A stretch of DNA of 46,914 nt from Patescibacteria group bacterium (GCA_015485715.1 WFTA01000039.1:1-46914); one strand, 5' to 3'; numbered from the stretch's first letter, positions 19,705 to 42,471 are shown. Notes: generated from the letters alone by a model not told the origin. Program-made: numbers and translations.

Positions 19705-20502
19705 CTATCCAAAAATAAACCACTTTGGCTTTTTTTCTTCCTCTTCCAAAGACAATATTTCTTTGGCAAGCCTTTTATAGGCTTTAGCCCCCTTTGATCC
19801 GGGATCATACTCCAAAATGGTCTTGCCAAATGAGGGAGCTTCAGCAAGAGACACTGATCTTGGAATAACAGATTTAAAAATTCTTTCAGGAAAATAGCGA
19901 TACAGCTCATGAAAAACCTCCTGCGACAACTTGTATCTGTCATCATACATTGTCATCACAGCTCCTAAAATATTCAAGTCAGGATGCAGTCTGTTTTTTA
20001 CCAGATTAATAGTATGAAGAAGCTGGGACAATCCTTCCAGAGCATAATACTCAGTCTGCACAGGAATTAAAATACTGTCTGCGGCAGTCAGGGCATTTAT
20101 AGTAAGCATTCCCAGAGAGGGAGGACAGTCTATGATAATATAGTCATAGCTGTGCCTAAGCCCGTCTATCACCTGCCTCAGCCTGTACTCTCTCTTGGCA
20201 ACTCTGACCAGCTCTATATTAGCCCCTGCCAGATCAAGAGTAGCAGGCGCTATCCTGTGGCCGTCTATTCTGGTGCCAATTATAACATCCTTTAGGTGAT
20301 ATCTGCCGACAAGCGCTTCGTATACTCCCTTGTCTATATGGCGGGGATTAAAACCTACTCCTGATGTAGCATTGCCCTGAGGATCAATATCTACAAGCAA
20401 CACAAACTTGCCAAAATGGGCAAGATAAGCAGACAAGTTGACTGCAGTTGTGGTTTTAGCCACTCCTCCCTTCTGGTTTACAATTGCAATTGTTTTGGAC
20501 AT
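19705..20502 (-). CDS. parA: ParA/Soj partition ATPase
   Basis: 265 aa. Deviant Walker A (NQKGGVAKTTT), with typical ParA length and layout. The overlapping ORF 19686..19946 is judged spurious. Confidence 0.9.
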   Translation of the reverse strand: MSKTIAIVNQKGGVAKTTTAVNLSAYLAHFGKFVLLVDIDPQGNATSGVGFNPRHIDKGVYEALVGRYHLKDVIIGTRIDGHRIAPATLDLAGANIELVRVAKREYRLRQVIDGLRHSYDYIIIDCPPSLGMLTINALTAADSILIPVQTEYYALEGLSQLLHTINLVKNRLHPDLNILGAVMTMYDDRYKLSQEVFHELYRYFPERIFKSVIPRSVSLAEAPSFGKTILEYDPGSKGAKAYKRLAKEILSLEEEEKKPKWFIFG

Positions 20503-20535
20503 TATAATAATTTTTAATTTTATAATTTCAAATTT

Positions 20536-20590
20536 TTACCCAGAACCAAGTAGGTTCTGGGTAACCCTAAACCCCACGTGGTTTAGGGTT
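20536..20590. promoter_or_regulatory. Two abutting hairpin palindromes upstream of parA
   Basis: TTACCCAGAACC-aagta-GGTTCTGGGTAA (12-bp perfect arms, 20536-20564) and AACCCTAAACC-ccacgt-GGTTTAGGGTT (11-bp arms, 20563-20590). Neither strand has a flanking T-tract. Confidence 0.7.
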
Positions 20591-20793
20591 AAACAATATC
20601 CAATCTATAAAAAATCTAATACTAAATCCAAAATCCCAAACAGTACTAAAGTATTTTTAGGTTGTTTGAAAATTAAAAATTTCATTGAAAATTGAAAATT
20701 TCACCCCGCCTGCCCTATCGGATGATTAGGGTTGAATAACTGGGGTTGAAAATTTGAAAATTATTTATAGTTTCTTATACTATTTTACCACAA

Positions 20794-20822
20794 TTGACCA
20801 ATTAAAGAAAATATTTTATTAT
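20794..20822 (+). promoter_or_regulatory. Candidate promoter for tRNA-Leu (TTGACC-N17-TATTAT)
   Basis: Hexamers read directly. The -10 element ends ~16 nt before the mature tRNA 5' end. Confidence 0.4.
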
Positions 20823-20838
20823 AAATATGCCAAATTTC

Positions 20839-20922
20839 GGGCAAGTGGCGGAACTGGCAGACGCGTAGGTCTCAAAAACCTATGGGCTTTTGCCCGTGAG
20901 GGTTCGATCCCCTCCTTGCCCA
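20839..20922 (+). tRNA. tRNA-Leu (anticodon CAA), class II with a long variable arm; CCA not encoded
   Basis: Folded by hand. Acceptor GGGCAAG/CTTGCCC, D stem GCG/CGC, anticodon stem TAGGT/ACCTA with loop CTCAAAA, variable arm GGGC-tttt-GCCC, T stem GAGGG/CCCTC with loop TTCGATC, discriminator A. Confidence 0.93.
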
Positions 20923-20941
20923 CAGTCTTAAAGATCAAAAC

Positions 20942-20966
20942 AAAACCCCGACTCAGTCGGGGTTTT
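20942..20966. terminator. Bidirectional intrinsic terminator shared by tRNA-Leu (+) and the giant ORF (-)
   Basis: AAAACCCCGAC-tca-GTCGGGGTTTT, with A-run and T-run flanks that give a U-tract on either strand. Confidence 0.75.
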
Positions 20967-20986
20967 GATTAACTATCAAGGAGATA

Positions 20987-23900
20987 TTAGTTTTTATTTT
21001 GATTTCCATTTAAATTTAGTAAAAGACTCATTCTAATTAATCTATCAACACTTTCCCTATTTAGTACAGATAACCCAAATTGTCCTCTCTTTCCTTCCCA
21101 TTGAAGCCCTATTCCTGTGGCCTGACTGCCCTCATAATATTCTCTGTTAAAATATAAACGGGTACTACCTCCTACATTTAACCCTGCTTCAATCACCTGC
21201 TTGTGGGGAAGATTAGCGCCTCTAACATCAAATGGTCCTACGCCGGCTTCAATAATATACTGTAATGCAGGTTTTTTATTTATTTGCAATCCGTCTTTAT
21301 TTATCTCCACCTTTCCTCCTGTATTCAATATAAGTTGAGGTTCAATATATACTTTTCCACTTGATATCTTTGTCTTCAAAGATATAGCGGCTGATGGGAA
21401 GAAAAATGTATCTCTATCAGTTCTAACCATCACAGGAATCTGTACGACACTTACCCTTTCTCCTTCATTATTCGCAAGCGCTGCCTGTATAAAAGCACTA
21501 CCTACATCAATCCAGTTCAAACCACCTAAAAACCTTATCTCACCTTTTATTCCATCAGTAAATTCAGCTTTTACACTTAAACTTCCTGACAGCTGAAGTA
21601 GATGTTCTATTGGAAGTCTGATGTTTAAAGGAGAATTTTGGGAGTTTAAAACATCCGAACCAGACGGGCTAAGAGCTGCCATAATATCTCCAGTAGTATA
21701 GGAGATTTTCAAACTTTTCTCCATATATTCACTGCTACTGAATACTTTCATTTTAAATCCCCTTCTTTCCTCCATACCACCTCTTGAACTGAATTCCAAA
21801 TCTCTATAAGTCAGTTCTCCTCTTAAACCACTTTCTCCATACTGAGGATCTTCATATAAATCAGTTGCTTTCAATATAATATAGGTTAATAAATCAATCT
21901 GTTCTTGAGCTATTTCCTGTACTGAAGTATTTGCAACATTCTTAAGCATAAAATCAACAAGCTGATAAGGCTTAGTATCTTTTCCAAGACCTGATACTAT
22001 ATCTGCTAATTCTTTTATTTGCTTAGGATTAAGCTCTAAATACTCTTCTATCTCATTTCTTTCAAACATAATCTTTAAGGAGTTTAAAATGCCTGCCAGC
22101 ACCTTAACATTGTAAGGCACTTTGTTGCTTTCCATATCTACATCCATAATGCCTGCAAGATAAGGAAGTCCTATCTTAAGCTTAACATCTCTGTCTCCAA
22201 AATATTCCTTAATTTTTTCTGCAAAATCCTGCATATTCTTAGCCCCAAGAGCAATCTTTTTAAATACATCTAAATCAAAAGGTGTTCCATCAGGAATTTC
22301 AAAAGATATAATATCTTTCTTGTACTTTCCAAGGTTGGGGTCATATTCTGATATATATATTTTTGCTTCTTTTTCACCTATATAATACCCGGCATTAGCC
22401 ATTAGTGCCGCCCAACTCCACTCTATCTTTGAGGCAACATCAAAGCGTCCCAATAGCCTGTCAAATTCAGCTACTGTTTCCCAGCTGATATCACCGTTTT
22501 CAACCAAAACATTTAGTGCGGCTCTGCTTAATACATTATTTTCAAACTCTGCCCAAGATTTGGTAACCTCTGCTTTCCATCTTCCAAATATTGCCTGCAC
22601 CAGATCAGCAGATATTTTTGCCTTATCTCCTCTTTTTTCAGCCATCACAGCTTCCACAGCAAACCTTAACTTGCCTTTTAGAAAATCTATATATCCGCTC
22701 TTTAAACTTGCAAAAGTTCTCTCTTTATCTTTTAAGTACTCAACTTCGTTAAATTTAATCTCAAGTATATCAGCCAAATAAGCGTAAATTTCACTTGCAG
22801 ACAAATCCATACCGTTCTTCTCCAATTTAGATATAAATTCTTTTATTCCCAACTCAAAACTACCTGCATTCAGGACAAAACTCTCAAAAGCATACTCTTT
22901 TACATCGTTTATCTTGTCTATCTTTTGCTTAAATCCTTGAAGTTTTGTATTTACTATTCTTCCAATTCTGGCATACAGACTGTCTATATTCCTGTCAATA
23001 TTCCCTTCTGCACCTATCTCCTCCTTTACACCCTCAACAACTGCTTCTATAAACCCTTTAAAGGCTAAAATCTTTAGTTCCTCAAATCCCTGCACCATCT
23101 TTTCTCCTGTTTTTGAAAAGAAATACTCCTTCAAAGAAAAATTCAAAAGACTGTTTAAATCTGCTTCTATTTTTCTGTAAATATTTTCTCTTCCTTCAGG
23201 TGAGTCTATATCAACATAGCCAGATATGGCAATTCTTATTATTTCCCCTACAGTAAATCCAAGCCTGTCAAATACTTCCTCCCTGCTTCCGTCTTCTCCT
23301 ATTTTCTTATTATATCCTTCAACAAATATGCTTAGGAGTTCTTCAACATCAGGACTTGAGAGCCATTCTGATATCTTGCCTTTATATTTGCCATCTTTTG
23401 ATCTGCCAAGATCTGCAAGCAGTTCATCAAGATTAATATTACCTTCATCATCCATATAAAATCCCTTTTCCCTGACAGCTAAAAGAAAATTCTGAATCAT
23501 TGCATAAAGCTCAGCATTTTGTAAAAACGCTTCCTCTATGCTCTCTGACTTTTTAATACCCATTTTCTCAAGTTTTAACAAAAATCTATCTATAAGCTCT
23601 GCACTGAACTTATCAAAACTGATTTGTGTTCTTTCCTTAGATATTTCAACCACTAAACTATCCAACACAGATATAAATCTGCTTTTCTCAAGCTCAACCC
23701 CTGCTCCCTCTACAGCCAGTCTTATATTTCCCTTTCTGTCAACATTAAGATCAAATCCCTGCACTTTAAACCAATCTTCATTTTTCATCAGAACTTCAAG
23801 ATCTTCAACACTCAATGAAAACTGACCTTCCTTTGTATTCAATCTTGCTGAAATCCCCTTCGTCTTTCCTATAAATACATTACCCCAGTTAATCATATTC

Positions 23901-26900
23901 CACTCTGCAAGCTGGAATATGAATTCATTATCTCCATATTTAGCCTGCAGACCCTGCAGTGCCACTGCTCTGGCATTTCTATCTATATCAGACAACATAC
24001 CATCATCTATATATCTTAAATCTTTACTATCAAACTCTATTATTCCATTTAACAATGCTTCAGCATACAAATCCTTTGCATCTCTCATTGCCTCAACCAA
24101 TGTAAACATATCAATACCAAGCTCAAACTTTTCACTTGACAAATCTGCACTAAATCTAAATTTTGAAATACTAGCAACAAGCTTTTTTACATCGCCAGAA
24201 TAATCAAGATGCCCCTCTCCTGCTGCAACTTCTATTTCACTTCCTTTTTTCTTTGCTTCAAATTCCTTAAGCCATGCATCTGCTATCTCTTTATATCTCT
24301 CAAGTCTCATAAAAGCAAGATAGGCTGTAAAATCACCTGTTCTGCCATACTCTAACTTTAAACCTTGCAAATCAGCCTCTATACCTTTGTTAATTTTTCT
24401 TACTCTGTCAGCAACTTCTTCAGGAGTCATTTTAGGGGCATTTAAATCCAAATTTGCGAATTCTTTTGCATAAATTTGTTCAACACCCAAAACAAACTTC
24501 ATATCTCCCAAACCTGCCTCAAGACCCTTTATAATGCCATATATATATTTTCCATACCCTTCAGAAAAAAATGCCTCAGCACTCACCCTCAAAGCATATT
24601 GTATATCCTCTTTACTAATATCTCCTCCTTTCTGAAGCAGGATTTCCCCTATATTTGCATAAACAAGCTCTTTAAAATTCTTTACAAATACATTTCTAAG
24701 ATATGCAGTATATGCATCGTTTTCCATCTCAACACCCACCATTCCAGTAAACTCAAAATATTCACCTATAACCCTTTTTGCAGCATCTTGATATCTTTTC
24801 TCAGGATCAGATTCTCTGCTGTTTTTAAGATAATACTCAAACCTTTCAGCCGCACTGTCGCTTGACAAATAATCTCTCAAATCCCTAAATGCAAAACTCA
24901 TCTGCAGTCTGAGATAGTCTCTTCTTAATTGCTCAAATTCAAAATCTTTCAGAAAAGCTTCCCAGTTTTCTGTCACAGCCATTGCTTTTTCTAAATCTAT
25001 ATAGGTCTCACCATTTTTATATGTTACCGTCAATCCTTCTAAACTTGCAAACACCTGATCTTTAAAATCTTTCACTTTAGCTCGAGCTAATGCAATCTCT
25101 ATACTATTTTCACCAAATACACTCTCAACTTGTGATACAAATATATTGCCCCAATTATCTATCTCAACCCTAAATTCCTCTACTGATAATTTCTTCCTGT
25201 CTTCAGCAATTTTACCACTTATTCTTTTGACATAAGTTTCAAAATCATCAGCTATAATATTTGCTAACTCTGCAGAAAATTTTTCTCTGCTGATATATAC
25301 ACCTTTAAAATAGAATTCTGTTCCTCCTCCTCTTTCTGCATGAGGCAGGAAAGTACCCATTGAGTCAAAGCTGAATACCTTATCAGACTGGTTATAATAA
25401 ATATTGGTAAACTCTGTGGTAAATCCTGAAGGAAGCTGAACAAATATGCCATTAATATTTACACTCTCAACACCAGCAAAATTCTCTTTTATAAACCACT
25501 CCAGCCAATTTTTATCTACCTTTTTACCTTTATAGAAAATCTCATCAGATGTTCTGGGTAGTGTAAAATTATTCCAGTTAAAACCCTCTTTATCTTTTCC
25601 TTTTATATCTACTCCTTTTAGTGATACACTTAATGTATCCTTGCCTTCTGGGCCAGCATTAAACCAACTTAGATTAAAAGACTCTATAAAAAACCTATCA
25701 TTGTTTACCTTTGGTAAAGTAAATTCAATCTTACCTTTGACTGGATTAGAATCATGAGGTTCAACATTCTTATAAGTCTCTATTCCTCCGTAAGAAATAC
25801 TAAACTTATTACCATCAAAAAATACGTCATATACATCTGCCGAATATCCTTGACCAAACCATTTCAAATTCTTTGGAACATAAGTAACTAACACTCCTTG
25901 TATCATTTCGTACCATGGAGGCAGTTTTTTACCTTCAGCTATAGCTTGCCTATATCTGGTTGCAAATGTATACAGAGAGAGATCATTACTTTCCGCATCC
26001 AAATACTTTTCAAACATACCATCTACTCCTCTGACTCTAAACTTAGAAGGATATTTTAAAACCTCCATCTGTATCCCCCCAACATCGACAGCTCTTTCAA
26101 AATCAGTTTTTATTTTTTCATAAAATCCTTTCAGCCATGAAATAGCATTCTCTCTATATCCCTTTATAAATAGAGGTATATATTCGCCCGCCTCTGTTAT
26201 TTTCTCTTTAGGAATAGATGTTTTCTCATCTAAAATATTTAAATATTTATTCCATTTACTTGATATATCATTAGCATATTTATCTAATGACAAGGATAAA
26301 TCGTAAATATTTTTATTAACCCACTTATAATATGAATATACTAGTTGGGAATATTTTTTTCTTTTTTCAGTAATTATTTCACTGCCAGCTTGCATAATCT
26401 TTTCTTCCAGTTTTCCTATCATATCCGTCCATACATTAGATATTTCTTTTGGATCAAATTTTCCAGATTTTATACTCTCTTCAATTACTTTTCTGGTGTC
26501 TGCAATAGATTTATATATATCACTCCTTACATCATCTGGAAGTACAAAAAGTAATTCTGAAAATTTTTTTTCGAAATCATTTATCTCTTGTAAAAACTTA
26601 TTGGCAGCTTCAGCTCCTTTCTGATTAATCTCAGATGATATGTTGTCTAACACTTTATTCAATTCTCTTCTTACTGAATCAGGCAAACTCTCTACTATTT
26701 TTTTAATCTCATCAAAAGGAGACTTTAACTTCCTTATCTCATCAGGCCATTTGAGAGTAGCCAATATATCCCTAGCCTCTTCTCCTCTAAGATCAGGGTT
26801 TGCAAAAGGACCTATACCAGATCCTGTTTTAAATCCTGCAGAAAATACAGGACCTTCTCCGCCTTCTATCTTAAGCTTTGGGACAGGAAGAGTATCAAGC

Positions 26901-29900
26901 TTGGTTGTGGTTGTCTCTGGAACAGGAAAAGCAGGTGTAGTATTTATTAAAATACCTACCAGATATCTTACAAATATTTCAGCAGATACTCTATATGGAT
27001 TTACCCTGCTTTCTCCTTCTCTTTTTTGTAGTTCTTTTTCAAATTCTCTCCATACATCAAATTCTGATATCGACCTTACAGCTCTTTCAAAAACATCTCT
27101 GTCTATATTGAAATATCTGTCATAATACTCTTTATATAAAGCAGTTATCTTATCCTTAAACCAGTCAACTGCTTCAGAAACAAATAAAAGCCTCTGGGAC
27201 CTTGCCTCAGGACTGACACCACCACTTAAATCCCAGTAATAATCACCTCTCATTACATTTTGCAAAAGCAGTATATCTCTTATAAACTTGTACAGATTTG
27301 GGTGCTTTTTTTCCAAATCACCGAAAGTTTTTATTCCTTGTTCAGGTATACTGAATCTAACCTGAGGCAATACTTCATCCATTCTCTCTCCTCTCATCCA
27401 AGTGATAATCTGCGCTGTTTTAAGATAGGCGTCATTACTGTTTGATGATAAAACTTTATCTATATCTTCATCTGGTATATCTTTTAGTTTGGCATATTTT
27501 CTTACATCATCCACACTTATACCAGTAAATCTGTCAAATATTCTCAAATATTGTTCTACCTTTATTTTCTTACCTTTTACACCTTTATATATTATCCTTC
27601 CATCTTTTTCTGCAAACAATTCTGAAGTTATCTCATCATTTTTCAACTCTTTAAAAAACTTTTGCTTTTTTTCCTCTGTCCATCCCTGAGTATATTTCTC
27701 TAAATACTCATTTGTATAATATGCTACATATCTCATTCCCTTGTGAAGCATCCAGTATGTCCTTTCAAATATATTGTGAGGTGCAGGAGTTTCTGTAAGA
27801 GAACCCTCCAAAATATCCTTAATCTCTTCCCATTCACTATCAGGTGCAAGAGCAAAAAGCTGAGACTCAAGATGTTTTCTCAAATCTTCAGCAGGGATAT
27901 CTATACCAAGTCTTTGAAGATCATTCTGAGATATCTGTGAAAACAAAACATTCAGACGAGGTCCTGCATATTTGGACCAGTGATAAAAATCCTGCTGTCC
28001 TTTCTGTGGATGTGCCTCAGCTTGACTACTGCCATAAAAAGATGCAAGCACATACAAAAGAAGAGCAGGAACAAGGGCTTTTGCATCTTTTGCTCTATTG
28101 TCCGCATGTTTGACAGCACTCTCTATAGCACCTTTTAGAGATACCCCACCTCCACTGCTCAGCATATCTGCTAAAGCATCTATTAAATACTCTTTTTCTG
28201 CCTGAGGTACACTGCCTTCTGCAAGAGCCTTAATACCATCAATTGTCCCCTGTATACTCCCTATGCTTTGGTCCAAAACCTCTGCATAGATGTTAACCCT
28301 TGACACCATTTCATCTCTTATTGTTCTATGTAATTCACCAAGAACCAATAGTACACTGCTAAATAATTTTGTATCTTCAGCTGAAAATCTTTCAACTGCT
28401 GTAGAATACATATCATTTACTTGTTGATAGACACCATCAATCTGGTTTTTATACTCAATCAAAAATAAAACAGGATTTGTATCTCCACTGCTGATATTTT
28501 CTATCACCTGTCTGGCAATATTTCTGCTGTTTTTTATTTTTGGCATTATTTCCCTTACCTCATCTATAATTCCTTTTATCCCCCCTACTACGCCTCTCAT
28601 CTGTTCTGAAATGTTTTTTTCTTCAATTTTTGACAGAAATTCACCTGCTTTTGCTATTCTCTCCATATGCCTTCTCTCTTCAGCAGAAGATATACTGTCA
28701 GCTGCTTTTCTGGACAATTCCTGAACCTCTTCAAAAAGAGAGGAATCGCCTGTTTCCATACTTACAATGCCAGCACCCAAAGTTAACAGCCTTGAATAAA
28801 CATCTGCACTCATCTCTAACTCTTGTGTGGCATTTTCTAAAACTTTAGATATACTTTCTGCTCTACTTAATCCAGAATATATATCTAATGCACTAAAGGT
28901 ACCCTTTTCTACCAAATATTTAATATGCAGCAAAACCTCTCTATACTCTGAAAATCTGTTAAATATACTCTGATCTACAATATCTTCCAATAAACCTGTG
29001 GCTATATTTCCTTTAATCGCCTGTTGTGATAATTGGCGCTGCAAATCCCCTACTTTTCTGTCAGGACTCACTAAACACACCTTCTGATAAGTAGAATCTA
29101 TCACTTTCAAGACTTTTTTCTTTGTACCCTCATCTAATCTTGCTATCTGACCATACCCCTCAAAATTTATATTTTGAGATACTATATCTCTTATCTGAAG
29201 CAAATTTTTGTTTACCTCAAGCTCTATTCTCTTTATTTGATCAGCAAATATCTGCTCTTTTGGATATTTAAGTTGAGTGTAATAATATTCAATCATCAAG
29301 TTGTCTAACTCTGGTATATGGTTTTTAGGATCTTTTGCACAATCTATAGCTTTATCAACAATGCTGCGTAAAGATGCAATCTCTCTCTTAGAGGCAAATT
29401 TAGATATCTGATTTTTATATTTTTGCCAAAGCCCTTCTACTCCGTCCAACTCTAATCTAAACCTATCAAGTTTTTTTAATATTGTTTTTTCATCTCCAAG
29501 TTCTATATCAAAAAGCAGATTTCTGACTGTATCAATAATATCTCTCTTTAAGCCAAGAAAACCGACTTTATATCTGTGATATTCTATTTTATCTAATATC
29601 CCCTTCTCTCTTGCATAATGTATATTTTCTACCAGACGCCTTGCCTCACTTAGGCTTAAATCAGAAGACTTAACCACTGTCCTGACTGCTTCAGACGGCT
29701 TCATTTTTCCATCAATAATCCCATTTAAAACAACACTCCATACCTCTGGAATAATATTTAAACTTTCTCTGTATTTTGCTCTAAATATTTCACCCAACTC
29801 ACCCACTAAGCCATATCTGACACTTTCACTCAACTTTGAGACAACTTCACTATTATCAGGCAAAACCCTATTTCCCTCCATCAAAGCCTGCAAAGGAATA

Positions 29901-30550
29901 GAAAATCTTATATTTCTCCTGCCTTCGATTCCAAAACCATGTTCACTTGTTAATTCATCAATTGCTTCAACAACTTTTTCTACTGCCGCGCGGACAACAT
30001 CAGGTACTGTTGAAGATTTAAATCCACTATCTACTATATACATATGAACCCACTCAGCCAAACTAAAATGCCTGTTATCCTGTGTATTGTACTGCTCTTG
30101 TAACCTTGTTCTATCTGAGTCTGACAGTAAATTACGTGCTTTCTGAGTGGCTGATGTTAATTTTTCTGAAAGCGTAGACTTGGAAATTATCTTATAGTAA
30201 TTCCTGTATACCCCCTGCCAATTGTTCGCATTTCTTTTGGATAACCTAACTAACACATTTTGAGGTATTTCTGATAAAGTATTCAAAACCTCATCTATAG
30301 CATCAGGAATTTGATTATATATACCCGAAAGATCAGAAAATTCACTTTTAATATTTGCACGCAATTCTTCAAATGCACTTCTTACATCGTTTGGATCCAC
30401 ATATTCAAGCTTTCCACATACACCAGCCGGGAGCTCTTCCAAAAACCTTTCAGTATCAAAAATACCAGTAGCAACTTCTGGAGATCCGCCACCCGCTGTC
30501 TTAATCATATGCTGAAAATCTTCTTTTGATTGTATTCTGCTGTACCTCAT
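20987..30550 (-). CDS. Giant hypothetical protein (3187 aa); no family recognised
   Basis: Uninterrupted 9.56-kb ORF with an ATG start in DNA where stop codons are frequent. Mostly K/E-rich, helix-like sequence. More beta-like segments lie at about 25275-25890 and in the C-terminal ~255 aa (20990-21760). Confidence 0.85.
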   Translation of the reverse strand: MRYSRIQSKEDFQHMIKTAGGGSPEVATGIFDTERFLEELPAGVCGKLEYVDPNDVRSAFEELRANIKSEFSDLSGIYNQIPDAIDEVLNTLSEIPQNVLVRLSKRNANNWQGVYRNYYKIISKSTLSEKLTSATQKARNLLSDSDRTRLQEQYNTQDNRHFSLAEWVHMYIVDSGFKSSTVPDVVRAAVEKVVEAIDELTSEHGFGIEGRRNIRFSIPLQALMEGNRVLPDNSEVVSKLSESVRYGLVGELGEIFRAKYRESLNIIPEVWSVVLNGIIDGKMKPSEAVRTVVKSSDLSLSEARRLVENIHYAREKGILDKIEYHRYKVGFLGLKRDIIDTVRNLLFDIELGDEKTILKKLDRFRLELDGVEGLWQKYKNQISKFASKREIASLRSIVDKAIDCAKDPKNHIPELDNLMIEYYYTQLKYPKEQIFADQIKRIELEVNKNLLQIRDIVSQNINFEGYGQIARLDEGTKKKVLKVIDSTYQKVCLVSPDRKVGDLQRQLSQQAIKGNIATGLLEDIVDQSIFNRFSEYREVLLHIKYLVEKGTFSALDIYSGLSRAESISKVLENATQELEMSADVYSRLLTLGAGIVSMETGDSSLFEEVQELSRKAADSISSAEERRHMERIAKAGEFLSKIEEKNISEQMRGVVGGIKGIIDEVREIMPKIKNSRNIARQVIENISSGDTNPVLFLIEYKNQIDGVYQQVNDMYSTAVERFSAEDTKLFSSVLLVLGELHRTIRDEMVSRVNIYAEVLDQSIGSIQGTIDGIKALAEGSVPQAEKEYLIDALADMLSSGGGVSLKGAIESAVKHADNRAKDAKALVPALLLYVLASFYGSSQAEAHPQKGQQDFYHWSKYAGPRLNVLFSQISQNDLQRLGIDIPAEDLRKHLESQLFALAPDSEWEEIKDILEGSLTETPAPHNIFERTYWMLHKGMRYVAYYTNEYLEKYTQGWTEEKKQKFFKELKNDEITSELFAEKDGRIIYKGVKGKKIKVEQYLRIFDRFTGISVDDVRKYAKLKDIPDEDIDKVLSSNSNDAYLKTAQIITWMRGERMDEVLPQVRFSIPEQGIKTFGDLEKKHPNLYKFIRDILLLQNVMRGDYYWDLSGGVSPEARSQRLLFVSEAVDWFKDKITALYKEYYDRYFNIDRDVFERAVRSISEFDVWREFEKELQKREGESRVNPYRVSAEIFVRYLVGILINTTPAFPVPETTTTKLDTLPVPKLKIEGGEGPVFSAGFKTGSGIGPFANPDLRGEEARDILATLKWPDEIRKLKSPFDEIKKIVESLPDSVRRELNKVLDNISSEINQKGAEAANKFLQEINDFEKKFSELLFVLPDDVRSDIYKSIADTRKVIEESIKSGKFDPKEISNVWTDMIGKLEEKIMQAGSEIITEKRKKYSQLVYSYYKWVNKNIYDLSLSLDKYANDISSKWNKYLNILDEKTSIPKEKITEAGEYIPLFIKGYRENAISWLKGFYEKIKTDFERAVDVGGIQMEVLKYPSKFRVRGVDGMFEKYLDAESNDLSLYTFATRYRQAIAEGKKLPPWYEMIQGVLVTYVPKNLKWFGQGYSADVYDVFFDGNKFSISYGGIETYKNVEPHDSNPVKGKIEFTLPKVNNDRFFIESFNLSWFNAGPEGKDTLSVSLKGVDIKGKDKEGFNWNNFTLPRTSDEIFYKGKKVDKNWLEWFIKENFAGVESVNINGIFVQLPSGFTTEFTNIYYNQSDKVFSFDSMGTFLPHAERGGGTEFYFKGVYISREKFSAELANIIADDFETYVKRISGKIAEDRKKLSVEEFRVEIDNWGNIFVSQVESVFGENSIEIALARAKVKDFKDQVFASLEGLTVTYKNGETYIDLEKAMAVTENWEAFLKDFEFEQLRRDYLRLQMSFAFRDLRDYLSSDSAAERFEYYLKNSRESDPEKRYQDAAKRVIGEYFEFTGMVGVEMENDAYTAYLRNVFVKNFKELVYANIGEILLQKGGDISKEDIQYALRVSAEAFFSEGYGKYIYGIIKGLEAGLGDMKFVLGVEQIYAKEFANLDLNAPKMTPEEVADRVRKINKGIEADLQGLKLEYGRTGDFTAYLAFMRLERYKEIADAWLKEFEAKKKGSEIEVAAGEGHLDYSGDVKKLVASISKFRFSADLSSEKFELGIDMFTLVEAMRDAKDLYAEALLNGIIEFDSKDLRYIDDGMLSDIDRNARAVALQGLQAKYGDNEFIFQLAEWNMINWGNVFIGKTKGISARLNTKEGQFSLSVEDLEVLMKNEDWFKVQGFDLNVDRKGNIRLAVEGAGVELEKSRFISVLDSLVVEISKERTQISFDKFSAELIDRFLLKLEKMGIKKSESIEEAFLQNAELYAMIQNFLLAVREKGFYMDDEGNINLDELLADLGRSKDGKYKGKISEWLSSPDVEELLSIFVEGYNKKIGEDGSREEVFDRLGFTVGEIIRIAISGYVDIDSPEGRENIYRKIEADLNSLLNFSLKEYFFSKTGEKMVQGFEELKILAFKGFIEAVVEGVKEEIGAEGNIDRNIDSLYARIGRIVNTKLQGFKQKIDKINDVKEYAFESFVLNAGSFELGIKEFISKLEKNGMDLSASEIYAYLADILEIKFNEVEYLKDKERTFASLKSGYIDFLKGKLRFAVEAVMAEKRGDKAKISADLVQAIFGRWKAEVTKSWAEFENNVLSRAALNVLVENGDISWETVAEFDRLLGRFDVASKIEWSWAALMANAGYYIGEKEAKIYISEYDPNLGKYKKDIISFEIPDGTPFDLDVFKKIALGAKNMQDFAEKIKEYFGDRDVKLKIGLPYLAGIMDVDMESNKVPYNVKVLAGILNSLKIMFERNEIEEYLELNPKQIKELADIVSGLGKDTKPYQLVDFMLKNVANTSVQEIAQEQIDLLTYIILKATDLYEDPQYGESGLRGELTYRDLEFSSRGGMEERRGFKMKVFSSSEYMEKSLKISYTTGDIMAALSPSGSDVLNSQNSPLNIRLPIEHLLQLSGSLSVKAEFTDGIKGEIRFLGGLNWIDVGSAFIQAALANNEGERVSVVQIPVMVRTDRDTFFFPSAAISLKTKISSGKVYIEPQLILNTGGKVEINKDGLQINKKPALQYIIEAGVGPFDVRGANLPHKQVIEAGLNVGGSTRLYFNREYYEGSQATGIGLQWEGKRGQFGLSVLNRESVDRLIRMSLLLNLNGNQNKN

Positions 30551-30780
30551 ACTTTATTGTCTTTTAATTCCTGTATCAATGCTTCTAAATTATAAAAATC
30601 TAAATCTCCATAATACGCTTTTTGTATCCAGTTTTGAAATATTTCTGGATATTGATAGATATACATCTCCAGTAAAATCTTATAAATTCGCGGAATTTGA
30701 GTGAAATATCTGTATACTTTCATTTTAAATGATTTGGGTACATTTGGTGTTGAATATATTATGGAAAAAAGAGTATTCAT
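30547..30780 (-). CDS. Small hypothetical protein (77 aa), translationally coupled to the giant ORF
   Basis: ATG start. Its TGA overlaps the giant ORF's ATG (ATGA at 30547-30550). Aromatic-rich, with no signal peptide. Confidence 0.5.
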   Translation of the reverse strand: MNTLFSIIYSTPNVPKSFKMKVYRYFTQIPRIYKILLEMYIYQYPEIFQNWIQKAYYGDLDFYNLEALIQELKDNKV

Positions 30781-30870
30781 ATTAGTAAATTATATCATAA
30801 AAATATCAAAAATTCAACCCAAAAATCTTGGAAAACACTAATATAACAAAAATCCAAAATATGTCAAGAT

Positions 30871-31956
30871 TTAGCTAAGTCTATGCCTAAAAATACTCTC
30901 CAAAAAACCCAATCCTGCATATTCAAATATCAATGCACTACCACCATAACTTAAAAAAGGAAGAGGAAGTCCCACAATAGGCGAAAGACCTATATTCATA
31001 GCAATATTTATAAAAGTTTGTACAAAAAATAAAGTGAAAATACTAAGAGATAAAAAAAACGAGAAAGAATCACTGCTTAAACGTATAATCCCTATACATC
31101 TCCAAAAAAACAACCCCCATAAAGACATAATAAACAAAAATCCTACAAAACCAAGCTGTTCAAGAAAAGATGCAAATATAAAGTCAGTCGATGCCTCAGG
31201 AAGGAATCTAAGCTGAGATTGTACTCCCTGACCCAGACCCTTTCCCACTAAGCCTCCAGAACCAACAGCTATGATGGATTGCTTTACTTGGAAACCTTGT
31301 CCTGCAGGATCCCTGTCAGGATTTAAAAACACTGTTATCCTCCCCTTTTGTTCAGGAGATAACACAAAAAACCACCCAGCAATAAATACAAACAGAGCCA
31401 ACATCACCAAAACTACAAATCCTTTCTTTGTCAATCCAAAAGCCGCATTAAGGACAAACCATATTAAAAGTAATATAAATATAGGCCCAAAATCTGGCTG
31501 CATACCAAGAAGGATCAAAGAAGGTAAAAGCAGAAAAAAAGACTTTATCCATACAGACCAGTCCCTTCTATCCTGTTTTGAGATAAAATATGACAATGCC
31601 AAAACAGAAGCTATTTTTACATATTCAACTGGCTGAAATGAAAACGGTCCCAGAATAAACCAACCCTTTGTCCCCCTGATCTCAATACCAAATACTAAAA
31701 CCAAAACCAACAACAAAACACCTCCTAAATATAAAACATAAGACCATCCGCCTATTTTCCTGAAGTCAAAAAAAGAAATTAAACCAAAAACAACAAGACC
31801 TATAAACAGAGCAATAAGCTGTTTATGAAACCGGGTCAGACCCTCTGCGTCAAGAGATAAACTGTAGATCACAAACAACCCAATTAAAGTCAAAGTTAAA
31901 GATACCAATAATAAAATCCAGTCTGTTTTTCCAACTGATTTAACATTAATTTTCAT
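30871..31956 (-). CDS. SEDS-family peptidoglycan glycosyltransferase (FtsW/RodA)
   Basis: 361 aa and polytopic. Motifs PDFGPIFIL, RFLPEASTDFIFA and GLPLPFLSYGGSAL. Confidence 0.88.
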   Translation of the reverse strand: MKINVKSVGKTDWILLLVSLTLTLIGLFVIYSLSLDAEGLTRFHKQLIALFIGLVVFGLISFFDFRKIGGWSYVLYLGGVLLLVLVLVFGIEIRGTKGWFILGPFSFQPVEYVKIASVLALSYFISKQDRRDWSVWIKSFFLLLPSLILLGMQPDFGPIFILLLIWFVLNAAFGLTKKGFVVLVMLALFVFIAGWFFVLSPEQKGRITVFLNPDRDPAGQGFQVKQSIIAVGSGGLVGKGLGQGVQSQLRFLPEASTDFIFASFLEQLGFVGFLFIMSLWGLFFWRCIGIIRLSSDSFSFFLSLSIFTLFFVQTFINIAMNIGLSPIVGLPLPFLSYGGSALIFEYAGLGFLESIFRHRLS

Positions 31957-31957: not shown

Positions 31958-32830
31958 CTACTCTTTTCCTAAAATATCTTGTATATAATCCTGATATGAA
32001 AGATCTATGTAATTCGCTTGATTATATACATCTAAATCCACACTTACCTCTGCCCTATAAGGTGTTGTATAAAACACTGGCCAGAAAGCTGTAAATCTCC
32101 TCTTTTCTCCATATCCTACCTGATTTAGAACTATATAGTTAGTGCCTATAATATTATCATCAAAATCATAGAGTAAAATCACCATTCCAACATTCCAAAA
32201 ACCATATGGAGTGTTGTTATAAAGCACCCCCTCTACCAGAAGATTGTCATTTGATTTTTTAATATTTATATCTTGTATTTCTATATTATTCAAAATTTTC
32301 ATCGGATTTATATCTTTTACTCTCTGCCAATCTACATCCAAAATATCCAGTCTAATAGAGGGAGAAAACGACGAAACTTGAACATTGAATCTCATAAGAT
32401 ATTTGGTCGAATTTGGCAGGATGGATACACTTTCCTCATCCATGGGGTTACCGTCAACAACAAATCTGTATCTAAGATTATCAATCTTCCATTTTATATT
32501 GGGGTTGGATACTTTTGCTATTATATCAATTTTATCTGTAGAAGGTATAAAAACAGCAGTAACGCTTTTTACTTGAATATCTATAGGAGAGAATTTACGC
32601 CTTAGAACCTGAAGAGGTACATATGTCCGGGTAAGCTCATACTCTGTAAAATAAGTCTTGATGTCATTCACTCCATATAATACCCATTGTATTCCCAAAT
32701 TATACAAAATAAGGATATCAATAAAAAAAAGAGAGAAAATTCCGAGTCTTTTCAAAAAAAGTCTGTTTCTTGCAAAAAACCCTGCATATTTTAATTCCTT
32801 TTCTGTAAAATGTTTATAGTCAGGAGACAT
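31958..32830 (-). CDS. Hypothetical single-pass membrane protein with a beta-rich ectodomain
   Basis: 290 aa. One N-terminal hydrophobic helix (LGIFSLFFIDILILYNLGIQWVLYGV). Its stop lies 1 nt before the SEDS gene's start. Confidence 0.6.
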   Translation of the reverse strand: MSPDYKHFTEKELKYAGFFARNRLFLKRLGIFSLFFIDILILYNLGIQWVLYGVNDIKTYFTEYELTRTYVPLQVLRRKFSPIDIQVKSVTAVFIPSTDKIDIIAKVSNPNIKWKIDNLRYRFVVDGNPMDEESVSILPNSTKYLMRFNVQVSSFSPSIRLDILDVDWQRVKDINPMKILNNIEIQDINIKKSNDNLLVEGVLYNNTPYGFWNVGMVILLYDFDDNIIGTNYIVLNQVGYGEKRRFTAFWPVFYTTPYRAEVSVDLDVYNQANYIDLSYQDYIQDILGKE

Positions 32831-32897: not shown

Positions 32898-33239
32898 ATG
32901 TTTGAAACAAGCAGAGATATATTAAATTTATCCATCACTATAGCCATCATCCTAATCACTCTCATTGTGGTTGTAATAGGTGTCTACATCACTTTGATTA
33001 TACGCGATTTCAGACAATTAAGCAAATCTGTGAGAGAGAAAATTAAGCTAATAGATGGACTTGTGAATAAAACTTCAAACACACTTGATCTTGTAAATCA
33101 AAAAATAAAAAGCTCTTCTACCTATCTGACAGTTTTTGTCAAAATTGCGGATAAATTCATAGATTACCTCAAAGAAAAATCAAAATCCAAAAAACAATCC
33201 AAGCAGAGTGAAAGAAAAAAAGTAAAAGATGAAGAATAA
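32898..33239 (+). CDS. Small membrane-anchored coiled-coil protein (DUF948-like)
   Basis: 113 aa. An N-terminal TM helix, then a helical region and a K-rich tail. TAATG overlap with dnaE. Confidence 0.45.
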   Translation: MFETSRDILNLSITIAIILITLIVVVIGVYITLIIRDFRQLSKSVREKIKLIDGLVNKTSNTLDLVNQKIKSSSTYLTVFVKIADKFIDYLKEKSKSKKQSKQSERKKVKDEE

Positions 33240-36808: not shown

Positions 36809-36917
36809 CAACCCAGCCCCACTTTTTGAGGTAAATCTGTGCTATAAAGCCATAGGGTGTATAATTTGATTTAAAGCAACATATCTGAAGGTAATGTTGA
36901 AAAGTGGGGCTGGGTTG
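36809..36917 (+). repeat. TIR-element copy C (reference copy, perfect 18-bp TIRs)
   Basis: CAACCCAGCCCCACTTTT ...core... AAAAGTGGGGCTGGGTTG, with no internal ORF. Confidence 0.9.
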
Positions 36918-37187: not shown

Positions 37188-38390
37188 ATGCCAAAAAATA
37201 AAAAAACACCATCCAAAGCAACCATCACACCCCCCAAAGAAGAAAAAAATAATCTTCTCAAAAAAATATCCCTTTTTTTTATAGTAACAGCTTTGGCTGT
37301 TATTTTAATAATTGTACTTACATATACCTCTAGAGCAGAGATATATATAACTCCAGCTATAAAAAGCAATACCATATCATTTCGGGTTATAGTTTCAGAA
37401 AATACCATAAAAAACAATGAGTTACCCGTCATAAAAGGGAAAATTTGGGAATCTAATCTTGAAGGGAATAAACAATTTCAGGTTCAAAATACCAATATAG
37501 AAAAAGTAGGAAAATCAAAGGGAGAGATAATTATAATTAACAACAATACCAGAAACCAGACGCTGGTTAGAACAACAAGATTTCTAACACCTGACAATTT
37601 TCTATTTAGACTTGACAGGACAGTGGTAATACCAGCTCAAAGCAAAATTAGAGCAACGGTAACAGCTGATAAAGCAGGAATCGAAGGAGATATCAAGCCT
37701 CCACTTAGGCTCACTATTCCGGGGCTTAGTAAAAGTCTGCAAGATAAAATATACGGAGAAGTAGCTGCTCCATTCTATGGCGGACTTATAAAAATAGGTC
37801 AGGTAACAGATCAGGAAGTATCATCAGCATTATCCAAATTTATAGAAGAACTCAGCGAACAAGACCAAGTCAATTTCTTGGCCGATTATTTATCACAAGA
37901 AGGATCACTCCCATCTGAAAGCATTGATATTATAAACAACACAGAGATAATATCACAACAGATTACACCTGAGATAGGAAGTGAATCAGATATATTCACA
38001 ATAGATCTCTCTGTTAAATCAAGAGGGGTTATATTTGACAAATCATCACTTATCAAAATATCACAAAATAAATTCATAAATTCTCTACCTGAAAGCGAAA
38101 GATTCATCTCCATAGACAGAAGTTCTCTGAATGTATCCCTAGACGATATAGATATTGAAAACAAACAAGCATATCTGACTGTTAAAATAACAGGATACTC
38201 TATAGTAAACGAAACATTTATTGACAAAAATCAATTAAAAGGAAAAAGCATTCAGCAGATAAAGGATATGTTCTCAGATAACCCGCAAATTAAAAAAGTT
38301 GAGGTCTACTTAAATCCATTTTGGGTCAAAAAAGTTCCTCAAATGGAGAAAAATATCTTTATCTTTATCAATTCTCCTGCCATAGAATAA
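37188..38390 (+). CDS. Hypothetical N-terminally anchored extracytoplasmic protein
   Basis: 400 aa. A basic N-terminus, one TM helix (ISLFFIVTALAVILIIVLTY), then a beta-rich sequence. The antisense ORF 37058..37432 is judged spurious. Confidence 0.65.
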   Translation: MPKNKKTPSKATITPPKEEKNNLLKKISLFFIVTALAVILIIVLTYTSRAEIYITPAIKSNTISFRVIVSENTIKNNELPVIKGKIWESNLEGNKQFQVQNTNIEKVGKSKGEIIIINNNTRNQTLVRTTRFLTPDNFLFRLDRTVVIPAQSKIRATVTADKAGIEGDIKPPLRLTIPGLSKSLQDKIYGEVAAPFYGGLIKIGQVTDQEVSSALSKFIEELSEQDQVNFLADYLSQEGSLPSESIDIINNTEIISQQITPEIGSESDIFTIDLSVKSRGVIFDKSSLIKISQNKFINSLPESERFISIDRSSLNVSLDDIDIENKQAYLTVKITGYSIVNETFIDKNQLKGKSIQQIKDMFSDNPQIKKVEVYLNPFWVKKVPQMEKNIFIFINSPAIE

Positions 38391-41061: not shown

Positions 41062-41071
41062 ATATCCAAAA

Positions 41072-41428
41072 TTACTTTATAAGCTCAGTAAACACAAACT
41101 TAGTGATTGCATAAGCAGACATTATAATAATAACACCTATAACTCCGCTTTTGATAAACCCTGTACCTTTTTTGGCCTTATCAGAGTCACCGCCTGATGT
41201 CATCCACAGAAAACCTCCATATATAGTCAAGATTAAAAAAATAACTCCTATAAATGCAATAACAGTGCTTAAAATATCTCCTATTAAAACTTTAATATCA
41301 GATCTTTTATTCAACCCTGCAGCTCCTGCTGCCTCATCAAGTCCGTATTGAGCAAAAGTGATATAAGGATAATACAATAAAAACAATATAATAAAATAAT
41401 TTGTTATTTTTCTAAACATACTAATCAT
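41072..41428 (-). CDS. T4SS-type pilin paralog P2
   Basis: 118 aa. Signal peptide ending TFAQ and core YGGFLWMTSGGDSDKAKKGTGFIKSGVIGVIIIMSAYAI. Confidence 0.75.
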   Translation of the reverse strand: MISMFRKITNYFIILFLLYYPYITFAQYGLDEAAGAAGLNKRSDIKVLIGDILSTVIAFIGVIFLILTIYGGFLWMTSGGDSDKAKKGTGFIKSGVIGVIIIMSAYAITKFVFTELIK

Positions 41429-41456
41429 ATTATCAATCTGATAATATTATATCATA

Positions 41457-42470: not shown

Positions 42471-42471
42471 T

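What the first reader, a model, noticed from the sequence alone, without database searches (positions are those of the whole stretch)
20987..30780. A 3187-aa orphan giant ORF with an ATGA-coupled 77-aa partner takes up one fifth of the window
A 9.56-kb ORF stays open in DNA where stop codons are abundant, so it is very unlikely to be non-coding. I recognise no catalytic motif (no HExxH, P-loop or similar) and no N-terminal signal peptide. Most of the protein is K/E-rich and helix-like. A more beta-like block of about 200 aa lies at roughly 25275-25890, and the C-terminal ~255 aa (20990-21760, ...GLNVGGSTRLYFNREYYEGSQATGIGLQWEGKRGQFGLSV...) are also beta-rich. One hydrophobic stretch (ALVPALLLYVLASFYG, around 28030-28090) could be a membrane helix. 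The upstream 77-aa aromatic-rich ORF ends in ATGA with the giant start, which suggests a dedicated partner such as a chaperone, adaptor or export signal. The pair sits between tRNA-Leu and the cell-wall gene block and shares a bidirectional terminator with the tRNA. Giant surface or host-interaction proteins are expected in episymbiotic small-genome bacteria, but this one has no recognisable family.
Basis: partly seen in the sequence, partly recalled or inferred. Interest (0 to 1): 0.7.

Follow-up and report, generated by a model that had tools for sequence, protein, structure and literature searches.

The report
Orphan giant protein with swappable tail
A real 363-kDa protein of unknown family, found only in three closely related lineages of ultra-small (Patescibacteria) bacteria, is made together with a tiny conserved partner, and its last 350 residues have been exchanged as a cassette between lineages, the pattern expected of a part that recognises another cell.

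Summary
A 3187-aa ORF (20987-30550, minus strand) overlaps a 77-aa upstream ORF by ATGA. Promoter-like sites lie upstream and the only terminator-like hairpin in the region lies downstream.

Both genes are real. Independent assemblies reproduce them, and two orthologous loci (81% and 32% protein identity) keep both ORFs at the same place between ftsW/rodA and tRNA-Leu/parAB. dN/dS is 0.01 for the small ORF and 0.12-0.61 for the giant.

The family is a true orphan. Pfam, NCBIfam, PADLOC, PDB sequences, Foldseek, phage, plasmid and metagenome searches gave nothing, and a full HMMER scan of 1.84 billion representatives found only the one distant ortholog.

There are no repeats, signal peptide, LPxTG or convincing membrane helix. 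None of the 825 invariant columns is His or Cys, so an enzyme is unlikely.

The new finding is a sharply bounded C-terminal cassette (aa 2838-3187). Flanking DNA is about 91% identical between close relatives, but the cassette is unalignable. The three cassettes are equidistant at about 31% identity.

My best reading, which is inferred, is a non-enzymatic structural or binding protein whose exchangeable C-terminal domain sets specificity for a partner or host. The export route and the function are unproven.

The parts
30840..30867 (-). Promoter-like site P1 (TTGACA-16-TATATT with TG), about 60 nt upstream of the 77-aa ORF
   Evidence: It is the best match in the 10.6-kb scan, 11 of 12 positions. 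Both hexamers are conserved in L001 and in the distant L003 within otherwise diverged intergenic DNA.
30789..30817 (-). Promoter-like site P2 (TTGAAT-17-TATAAT with TG). Its -10 box ends 8 nt before the ATG of the 77-aa ORF, which implies a leaderless or near-leaderless mRNA.
   Evidence: The same arrangement (TTGATT-17-TGtTATAAT, 7 nt before the ATG) is present in L003. No Shine-Dalgarno-like purine run is visible before either ATG.
30547..30780 (-). The 77-aa partner gene. The protein is basic and aromatic-rich, with an invariant N-terminal motif TLFSIIYSTPNVP.
   Evidence: 76 of 77 aa are identical to L001 despite pS 0.35, giving dN/dS 0.01. It is 47% identical to the L003 ortholog, E 6e-26. 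Only these two clusters exist in the 5.8-billion-cluster database. No Pfam, PHROG, NCBIfam or PADLOC family matches.
20987..30550 (-). Giant gene: 3187 aa, 363 kDa, pI 5.3
   Evidence: Orthologs are P0002 (81%) and P0006 (32%, E 6e-162 over the central 1200 aa). All three are collinear over their full length.
28079..30550 (-). N-terminal region, aa 1-824. This is the fastest-evolving part outside the cassette and is rich in indels.
   Evidence: dN/dS is 0.42-0.61. Identity to P0006 is 19-35%. Eight of the 11 deletions of 8 or more residues in P0006 fall here.
28028..28084 (-). Conserved hydrophobic segment, aa 823-841 (AKALVPALLLYVLASFYGS). It is a marginal membrane-helix candidate.
26951..27853 (-). 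Most conserved core, aa 900-1200, with motifs such as QNVMRGDYYW and AVDWFK
   Evidence: 93-96% identity to P0002 and 37-45% to P0006. dN/dS is 0.12-0.23.
26783..26944 (-). Pro/Thr/Gly-rich linker, aa 1203-1256
   Evidence: Read directly from the sequence. Indels cluster here in the three-way alignment.
25271..25894 (-). Central beta-rich globular domain, aa about 1553-1760 (motifs YGGIxTY, DSNPVKG, LPSGF, GGTxF)
   Evidence: AlphaFold gives strands with pLDDT 65-81 in the core. Identity is 99% to P0002 over aa 1501-1600. Invariant motifs are shared with P0006. Foldseek found no match with E below 1e-3 in PDB or BFVD.
22040..22069 (-). Junction anchor: a 30-nt block (MFERNEIEEY, aa 2828-2837) that is perfectly identical between the window and L001, immediately before the breakpoint
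20968..22039 (-). Exchangeable C-terminal cassette: aa 2838-3187, the stop codon and about 20 nt of 3' UTR. A short helical head is followed by a Gly-rich, beta-rich domain.
   Evidence: It is not alignable at DNA level with L001, while the flanking 30 kb is about 91% identical. dS is 1.35-1.45, against 0.10-0.34 upstream. The three cassettes are equidistant at 30.1-32.1% identity. No second copy and no template repeat exist in the loci.
20941..20967 (-). Intrinsic-terminator-like hairpin ending the operon. It is shared back-to-back with tRNA-Leu, and it is where DNA identity with L001 resumes.

Best explanation
**Shown.** The region is a two-gene operon: promoter(s), then the 77-aa gene, then the 3187-aa gene, then a terminator. 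Both products are lineage-restricted orphans of a small Patescibacteria clade. The giant protein is modular and non-repetitive, and it has no conserved His, Cys or catalytic motif. Its last 350 residues are an allelic cassette that was replaced by homologous recombination. One breakpoint lies just after a conserved anchor (MFERNEIEEY) and the other lies in the terminator.

**Inferred.** The giant is a structural or binding protein rather than an enzyme. The conserved 2800-residue body acts as a scaffold or stalk. The exchangeable beta-rich C-terminal domain is the specificity determinant that contacts something outside the cell's own conserved machinery, most plausibly the surface of the host or partner cell on which such bacteria depend. 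It is therefore under diversifying or frequency-dependent selection.

The small basic partner is made first from the same, probably leaderless, mRNA. It probably binds the acidic giant co-translationally as a holder or adaptor for folding, assembly or export. Export, if it occurs, must use a route other than an N-terminal Sec signal. The VirB2-type secretion or pilus system encoded nearby is a candidate, but this is a guess.
For: **The genes are real and constrained.** Independent assemblies agree. Three syntenic orthologs exist. dN/dS is 0.01 for the partner and 0.12-0.61 for the giant.

**Operon signals.**

**Orphan status.**

**Non-enzymatic character.** None of the 825 invariant columns is His or Cys, and the invariants are enriched in W, Y, F, G, L and P.

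**Composition.** Cys is 0.09% against 0.98% in the other proteins of the window (binomial P about 1e-10). His is 0.69% against 1.40%. This resembles the pilins and other envelope proteins of the window.

**Cassette exchange.**

**Fast evolution.** The giant is 32% identical to its distant ortholog where FtsW is 74%.

**Polymorphism hot spot.** Of the 18 SNPs between two 99.92%-identical assemblies, 16 lie in the giant gene, in clusters.

**Lineage context.** The organism is a Patescibacteria type with a VirB2-like pilin array. Published work links giant proteins of such bacteria to host attachment (PMC8080830). Published work also reports that their type IV secretion systems lack known adhesins and substrates (PMC12102498).
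Against: No signal peptide, sortase motif, lipobox-like start or convincing membrane helix is present, so extracellular location is unproven. Some cytoplasmic proteins in the window (ClpB, RpoD, ParB) also lack Cys.

No adhesion-type domains or repeats are present, unlike the known giant surface proteins of CPR bacteria. The type IV secretion core genes are not within 10 kb of the window.

With only three lineages, one recombination event cannot be told apart from an old balanced polymorphism. Within the one species sampled four times, the cassette does not vary. No confident fold was obtained for the cassette.
Confidence: 0.4

Rival explanations
1. It is a cytoplasmic structural scaffold, for example a cytoskeletal, cell-division or chromosome-organising element. 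It would stay inside the cell, and the cassette divergence would reflect relaxed constraint or co-evolution with another fast-evolving internal partner.
For: There is no signal peptide or convincing membrane segment. The protein is large, acidic and mostly helical in the modelled segments. Its position between ftsW/rodA and parAB is fixed in all three genomes.
Against: Patescibacteria that share the DnaE-FtsW synteny lack the gene, so it is not a core division or segregation factor. It evolves far faster than its neighbours. The razor-sharp cassette replacement with saturated dS, and the concentration of SNPs in this gene, are atypical of internal housekeeping scaffolds.
Confidence: 0.2
2. It is a polymorphic toxin or effector. 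A conserved delivery body would carry a variable C-terminal toxic domain used against competitors or the host, as in Rhs, CdiA or LXG proteins.
For: The body is conserved and large, and the C-terminal module is sharply demarcated and swapped directly after a conserved peptide motif. A small helical-looking partner is encoded upstream, as with LXG toxins.
Against: There is no immunity-type ORF downstream. The terminator, tRNA-Leu and parA follow directly. The three cassettes are homologous to each other at about 31% identity rather than being unrelated folds. They contain no invariant His or Cys and match no known toxin, Rhs, LXG, PAAR or TPS family. There are no orphan cassettes.
Confidence: 0.12
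3. It is an intracellular anti-phage or anti-mobile-element sensor whose variable C-terminal domain recognises invader proteins.
For: The gene evolves fast, is lineage-specific and polymorphic, and its variable module is C-terminal.
Against: There is no NTPase, nuclease, protease or other effector domain. PADLOC gave no match. No Walker A motif is conserved. No neighbouring defence genes were found.
Confidence: 0.07
4. It is a remnant of a phage or mobile element (a tape-measure-like protein) integrated next to tRNA-Leu.
For: There are weak PHROG matches to tape-measure families, with E 2.6e-6 and 1.4e-5 over aa 499-1443. The gene is adjacent to a tRNA gene.
Against: The distant ortholog does not share these matches, so they are probably compositional. 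No phage, integrase or tail genes are nearby. tblastn against 50,697 phage genomes and a scan of IMG/VR contigs found nothing. GC content equals that of the flanks. The gene is stable at the same chromosomal site in diverged genomes.
Confidence: 0.03

Closest known systems
Giant membrane or surface proteins of CPR bacteria, e.g. the 1392-4163-aa proteins of Vampirococcus lugosii (PMC8080830)
   Same: They are very large lineage-specific proteins in an ultra-small, host-dependent bacterium, and are proposed to mediate host recognition.
   Different: Those proteins have predicted membrane localisation and recognisable interaction domains (WD40, PKD, integrin, fibronectin, DUF11). This one has no signal peptide, no convincing membrane helix, no repeat and no known domain.
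Polymorphic toxins (CdiA, Rhs, LXG)
   Same: The body is conserved and the C-terminal module is exchanged by recombination directly after a short conserved peptide. LXG toxins also have small helper proteins encoded upstream.
   Different: There is no immunity gene, no delivery domains and no toxin family match. The alleles are homologous to one another.
Receptor-binding tips of phage tail fibres, and the receptor-binding domain classes of CdiA or colicins
   Same: Alleles are deeply diverged yet homologous, have sharp recombination boundaries, and sit on an otherwise conserved long protein. This is the pattern seen here.
   Different: There is no sequence or fold relation, no phage context, and no trimerisation or chaperone module was recognised.
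S-layer protein cassette types (e.g. Clostridioides difficile slpA; from my own knowledge)
   Same: These are abundant Cys-free envelope proteins with deeply divergent, recombining cassette types among close strains.
   Different: S-layer proteins carry a signal peptide and cell-wall-binding domains and are much smaller. None of these features is present here.
VirE1-VirE2 type pairs: a small chaperone gene immediately upstream of, and coupled to, a type IV secretion substrate (from my own knowledge)
   Same: The gene order is small-then-large with a start/stop overlap, the substrate has no N-terminal signal, and VirB2-type genes are present in the genome.
   Different: The partner is basic rather than acidic. 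There is no homology. No coupling protein or VirB4 lies within reach of the window. Secretion is untested.

Membership tests
Polymorphic toxin systems (Rhs/CdiA/LXG type) | Recognisable N-terminal trafficking or delivery domain (LXG, TPS, PAAR, Rhs/YD repeats, filamentous haemagglutinin repeats) | tested here: not met
   Pfam and NCBIfam scans of all three orthologs returned only hits far below threshold. There are no internal repeats.
Polymorphic toxin systems (Rhs/CdiA/LXG type) | Variable C-terminal module demarcated by a conserved junction motif | tested here: met
   DNA identity of about 91% ends directly after MFERNEIEEY (aa 2828-2837) and resumes in the terminator.
Polymorphic toxin systems (Rhs/CdiA/LXG type) | Cognate immunity gene immediately downstream, co-varying with the toxin module | tested here: not met
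   The stop codon is followed by the terminator hairpin, the oppositely oriented tRNA-Leu, and parA. No ORF lies between them. In L003 the downstream genes are ferric-reductase-like.
Polymorphic toxin systems (Rhs/CdiA/LXG type) | C-terminal module belongs to a toxin (nuclease, deaminase, pore-former and so on) family | tested here: inconclusive
   No family or PDB match was found. No His or Cys is invariant. The structure model was too poor to judge, with pLDDT 35.
Sec/sortase-dependent giant adhesins of single-membrane bacteria | N-terminal signal peptide | tested here: not met
   The N-termini MRYSRIQSKEDFQH... and MKFYKLTPEKLDEN... are hydrophilic. No hydrophobic window falls in the first 260 residues. 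SignalP was not available.
Sec/sortase-dependent giant adhesins of single-membrane bacteria | Tandem Ig-like or other repeats, and a C-terminal LPxTG anchor | tested here: not met
   Self-BLAST found no repeats. No LPxTG motif is present in any ortholog.
Phage tail tape-measure proteins | Significant and consistent profile match | tested here: not met
   Hits to phrog_167 and phrog_3336 appear only in the two close orthologs (E 6e-8 to 2e-4) and are absent in P0006.
Phage tail tape-measure proteins | Location within a tail-gene module | tested here: not met
   The neighbours are ftsW, dnaE, parAB, relA, dnaG and rpoD.
Diversity-generating retroelement targets | Variable region paired with a nearby template repeat and a reverse transcriptase | tested here: not met
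   No second copy of any cassette segment exists in the window, L001 or L003. No reverse-transcriptase domain was found among the window ORFs that were scanned. The divergence covers 1.07 kb and includes synonymous sites.
Type IV secretion substrate with dedicated chaperone (VirE1/VirE2-like) | Small chaperone gene upstream and co-expressed with the substrate | tested here: met
   The ATGA overlap occurs in two genomes and a 16-nt spacer in the third, and the pair is conserved. This is an architectural resemblance only.
Type IV secretion substrate with dedicated chaperone (VirE1/VirE2-like) | Acidic chaperone, a recognisable C-terminal secretion signal, and dependence on a coupling protein | not testable with these tools
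   The partner's pI is 8.1-8.8, so the acidic criterion is not met. The secretion signal and dependence on a coupling protein cannot be judged from sequence. No VirB4 or VirD4 lies within 10 kb beyond the window.
Integral membrane protein (single-pass anchor) | A hydrophobic segment of about 19 or more residues with favourable insertion energy | tested here: inconclusive
   The best 19-mer (aa 823-841) has Kyte-Doolittle 1.44 and a summed Hessa-scale dG of +5.5 kcal/mol. The P0006 equivalent is about 15 residues with dG +7.0. TMHMM and DeepTMHMM were not available.

The most novel reading that the evidence does not exclude
The pair encodes a previously undescribed kind of host-recognition device of episymbiotic Patescibacteria. 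A 363-kDa domain-less stalk protein would be exported without a Sec signal, with the help of its 9-kDa partner. Its recombination-swappable C-terminal beta domain would determine which host cell the bacterium can attach to.
Probability: 0.25. Interest if true: 0.75.

Novelty: new variant of a known kind. Interest (0 to 1): 0.52.

Why it matters
How ultra-small, host-dependent Patescibacteria choose and hold on to their hosts is largely unknown. Known candidates are type IV pili and a few domain-bearing giant proteins.

This protein takes up about 1% or more of a roughly 1-Mb genome (the genome size is my assumption for this group). It is kept intact in three lineages and is the local hot spot of polymorphism. 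Its terminal module has been swapped as a cassette. That makes it a concrete, testable candidate for a specificity determinant, because the cassette can be expressed, used for binding assays and exchanged.

It also shows that comparing close relatives can extract functional hints from proteins that no database can name.

Tried and rejected
**Homology searches with no result**
- Pfam, NCBIfam, PADLOC and PHROGs on all orthologs.
- PDB sequence search with a single sequence and with a three-sequence profile.
- Word-indexed search of 5.8 billion clusters with the whole protein, which found only the protein itself and its 81% ortholog.
- The same search with aa 2040-3187 failed to return even the query's own protein. 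I treat this as a tool failure, not a negative.
- The HMMER scan of 1.84 billion representatives covered only aa 840-2039 and added one ortholog.
- Pattern scans of GTDB genomes, JGI metagenomes and IMG/VR with the giant and with the partner found nothing.
- tblastn against phage and plasmid collections found nothing.

**Structure**
- AlphaFold of aa 2601-3187 gave pLDDT 35, which is unusable.
- AlphaFold of aa 1480-1880 gave pLDDT 54. Its best Foldseek hits (nuclear pore subunit, LptC and others) had E of 1e-3 or worse and TM of 0.33 or lower, so I rejected them.

**Rejected ideas**
- The tape-measure lead, because the distant ortholog does not share it.
- A diversity-generating retroelement, because there is no template repeat.
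- A membrane anchor, because the insertion energy is unfavourable.
- A core division or segregation role, because other Patescibacteria with the same upstream synteny lack any giant ORF downstream of ftsW.

**Other attempts**
- I looked for other cassette alleles in contigs that share the identical ParA. Only the same allele turned up, plus a contig that breaks at the cassette end.
- A literature search for the sample and accession names found nothing relevant.

Full report
**Observation**

The window holds an ATG-initiated ORF of 3187 codons on the minus strand (20987-30550). A 77-codon ORF (30547-30780) has a stop codon that overlaps the giant's start as ATGA. With the local base composition, a frame this long would stay open by chance with probability about 1e-114.

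tRNA-Leu(CAA) is at 20839-20923 on the other strand. Between it and the giant's stop codon lies a 12-bp GC-rich hairpin with T-runs, at 20941-20967. This is the only terminator-like site in 20500-31100. FtsW/RodA lies just upstream.

Two promoter-like sites precede the small ORF. P1 is TTGACA-16-TATATT. P2 is TTGAAT-17-TGaTATAAT, and its -10 box ends 8 nt before the ATG. Both are conserved in the orthologous loci, although the surrounding spacer has diverged. P2 would give a leaderless or nearly leaderless mRNA. No Shine-Dalgarno-like sequence precedes either start.

**Is it a real gene and a sound assembly?**

I could not map reads, but four lines of evidence agree.
- An ENA scaffold from the same environment is 99.92% identical over 22 kb. 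Its only defect is a 100-N scaffolding gap, which explains the 703-aa 'fragments' in the protein database.
- A contig of another MAG is identical over the 3' 1201 nt.
- A relative with about 91% DNA identity (L001) keeps a 3194-aa ORF and the 77-aa ORF.
- A much more distant relative (L003; FtsW 74% identical) keeps a 3193-aa ORF that is collinear over its full length at 32% identity. It also has a homolog of the small ORF (47% identity, E 6e-26).

Codon-level comparison with L001 gives dN/dS of 0.01 for the small ORF: 76 of 77 residues are identical despite 35% synonymous differences. For the giant up to residue 2800, dN/dS is 0.12-0.61. Both are therefore expressed, selected proteins.

**Organism and context**

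The neighbours are housekeeping genes: dnaE, ftsW/rodA, parAB, relA/spoT, dnaG, rpoD, dprA, topA, clpB and lysS. Ten kilobases away lie glycosyltransferases and an array of five VirB2-like 'T4SS_pilin' genes. Such arrays are a published hallmark of Patescibacteria (PMC12102498).

The closest FtsW in 185,579 species-representative genomes is only 44% identical and belongs to Patescibacteria MAGs. The lineage is therefore a poorly sampled branch of that phylum.

Four of those relatives share the DnaE-...-FtsW arrangement but have no giant ORF downstream. The pair is thus a lineage-specific addition at this site. In all three carriers the tRNA-Leu(CAA) follows. In L003, two ferric-reductase-like genes have been inserted between the giant and the tRNA.

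**Family searches**

Nothing known matches.
- Pfam, NCBIfam, PADLOC and PDB sequences, searched with single sequences and with a three-sequence profile, gave only noise.
- A full HMMER scan of 1.84 billion cluster representatives with residues 840-2039 found only the query's own cluster and the L003 ortholog.
- The small protein's profile found only its own two clusters among 5.8 billion.
- Pattern scans of GTDB genomes, JGI metagenomes and IMG/VR found nothing, and tblastn against phage and plasmid collections found nothing.
- Weak PHROG matches to tape-measure families occur in the two close orthologs but not in the distant one. They are best explained by composition.

**Anatomy**

The protein is 363 kDa with pI 5.3 and no internal repeats. 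The three-way alignment, the indel map and the identity profiles define these modules.
- A fast-evolving, indel-rich N-terminal region (aa 1-824).
- A short conserved hydrophobic segment (aa 823-841).
- A highly conserved core (aa 900-1200; 45% identity even to the distant ortholog).
- A Pro/Thr/Gly-rich linker (aa 1203-1256).
- A helical stretch, followed by a beta-rich globular domain (about aa 1553-1760).
- About 1000 residues that align with few indels.
- The C-terminal module (aa 2838-3187).

AlphaFold with three sequences gave a medium-confidence model for the central beta domain, with pLDDT 65-81 in the core. Foldseek found no credible relative in PDB or BFVD. The C-terminal model was unusable at pLDDT 35.

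The hydrophobic segment is not a convincing membrane helix. Its Kyte-Doolittle score is 1.44, its summed Hessa-scale energy is about +5.5 kcal/mol, and it is only about 15 residues long in the distant ortholog. There is no signal peptide, LPxTG or twin-arginine motif.

Of 825 columns invariant in all three orthologs, none is His or Cys. The invariants are enriched in Trp, Tyr, Phe, Gly, Leu and Pro. This argues against most hydrolase, nuclease, protease or metal-dependent chemistries and for a structural or binding role.

The protein has 3 Cys in 3187 residues, against 0.98% in the other proteins of the window (P about 1e-10), and half the usual His. The pilins and other envelope proteins of the window share this composition, but so do a few cytoplasmic proteins.

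**The C-terminal cassette**

This is the main new finding. Between the window and L001, DNA identity is about 91% across 30 kb. The exception is window 20968-22039, which BLASTN cannot align at all.

The upstream breakpoint falls immediately after a 30-nt perfectly identical block encoding MFERNEIEEY (aa 2828-2837). The downstream breakpoint is at the terminator hairpin, about 20 nt past the stop codon.

Within the cassette dS is 1.35-1.45, which is saturated, against 0.10-0.34 upstream. dN is 0.6-0.8. The difference is therefore not just fast protein evolution in place. It is replacement by a long-diverged allele.

The three known cassettes remain homologous and are equidistant, at 30.8%, 32.1% and 30.1% identity. 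Over the rest of the protein, the two close relatives are 75-99% identical per 100-residue window (81% overall), and the distant ortholog is about 19-45% identical to either. The window's cassette is, if anything, closer to that of the distant species.

There is no second or silent copy and no template repeat, so a diversity-generating retroelement is excluded. GC content matches the rest of the gene.

At finer scale, 16 of the 18 SNPs that separate two 99.92%-identical assemblies lie in the giant gene, in three clusters. About 8 would be expected by length, and my hand calculation gives a binomial P of about 1e-4. Within the one species sampled repeatedly, the cassette itself is invariant.

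**Interpretation**

The shown facts point to a non-enzymatic, modular protein with a conserved body and a terminal domain subject to allelic exchange. That signature is typical of molecules that face other organisms. Examples are receptor-binding tips of tail fibres, the receptor-binding classes of CdiA and colicins, S-layer cassettes and polymorphic toxins.

The lineage belongs to a phylum whose cultivated members are all obligate epibionts. I therefore consider a partner- or host-recognition role for the cassette the most likely reading, with confidence about 0.4. The body would act as a stalk or scaffold, and the small basic protein as a co-translated holder or adaptor.

The weak link is export. 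Nothing in the sequence shows how, or whether, the protein leaves the cell. The nearby VirB2 array is suggestive only, since no secretion ATPase lies within 10 kb beyond the window.

The rivals are:
- an internal scaffold (0.2);
- a polymorphic toxin (0.12), which lacks an immunity gene, has homologous rather than unrelated alleles and has no catalytic residues;
- a defence sensor (0.07), with no effector domain and no PADLOC hit;
- a phage remnant (0.03);
- an assembly or non-coding artefact, which is effectively excluded.

**Novelty and score**

Giant lineage-specific proteins in Patescibacteria are known as a class (PMC8080830). This one differs from described cases in four ways.
- It has no signal peptide, membrane segment, adhesion domains or repeats.
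- It has a strictly conserved 9-kDa partner.
- It has a cleanly swappable C-terminal cassette.
- The family is confined to three lineages among about 15 billion proteins.

I rate it a new variant of a known kind, of moderate interest (0.52). It is a good, testable candidate for a specificity determinant, but the mechanism is inferred and the phylogenetic spread is very narrow.

Noticed in passing
window 2-83, 6127-6229, 36809-36912, 46670-46788; also L001 3574-3776: A roughly 105-nt intergenic repeat occurs in four copies in the window, in both orientations, at 84-92% identity. It has terminal inverted ends (CCCAGCCCCACTTTT ... AAAAGTGGGGCTGGG). It looks like a miniature mobile element, an extragenic palindrome or a structured RNA. 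It has no Rfam family.
   Followed up: partly
window 40615-43497 (-): An array of five VirB2-like 'T4SS_pilin' (PF18895) paralogs. The 320-aa member (41457-42419) is 9.7% cysteine (31 Cys), while its neighbours have 0-1.3% Cys. It is called differently in other assemblies: it is missing from the ENA scaffold's gene calls and is 318 aa in GCA_015487705.1.
   Followed up: partly
window 30781-30870 (-), L003 9655-9760: Two tandem promoter-like sites are conserved across diverged relatives. The proximal -10 box lies only 7-8 nt from the ATG, which suggests a leaderless mRNA for the 77-aa gene.
   Followed up: partly
L003 19598-20997: In the distant relative, two ferric-reductase-like genes (Ferric_reduct, FAD_binding_8/NAD_binding_1) are inserted between the giant gene and tRNA-Leu. 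The window and L001 have no such genes there.
   Followed up: no
window 31958-32830 (-) and 32898-33239 (+), 37188-38390 (+): Three conserved neighbours of unknown function. The 290-aa protein upstream of ftsW has an FxLYD domain (NF038353, E 2e-5). The 113-aa and 400-aa proteins have no family and no Cys or His. All three are syntenic in L001 and L003.
   Followed up: no
L027 (ENA scaffold_2746, sample SAMN12239301) 1-281: A 20.5-kb scaffold from a sister sample starts 281 nt upstream of parA, at the tRNA/cassette end of the giant gene. In another MAG the giant sits alone on a 9,971-bp contig. Assemblies tend to break at the borders of this gene, which may reflect strain heterogeneity there.
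   Followed up: no
tool behaviour: The word-indexed protein search with residues 2040-3187 returned no hit at all, not even the identical database protein P0001. That negative result should not be counted as evidence.
   Followed up: no
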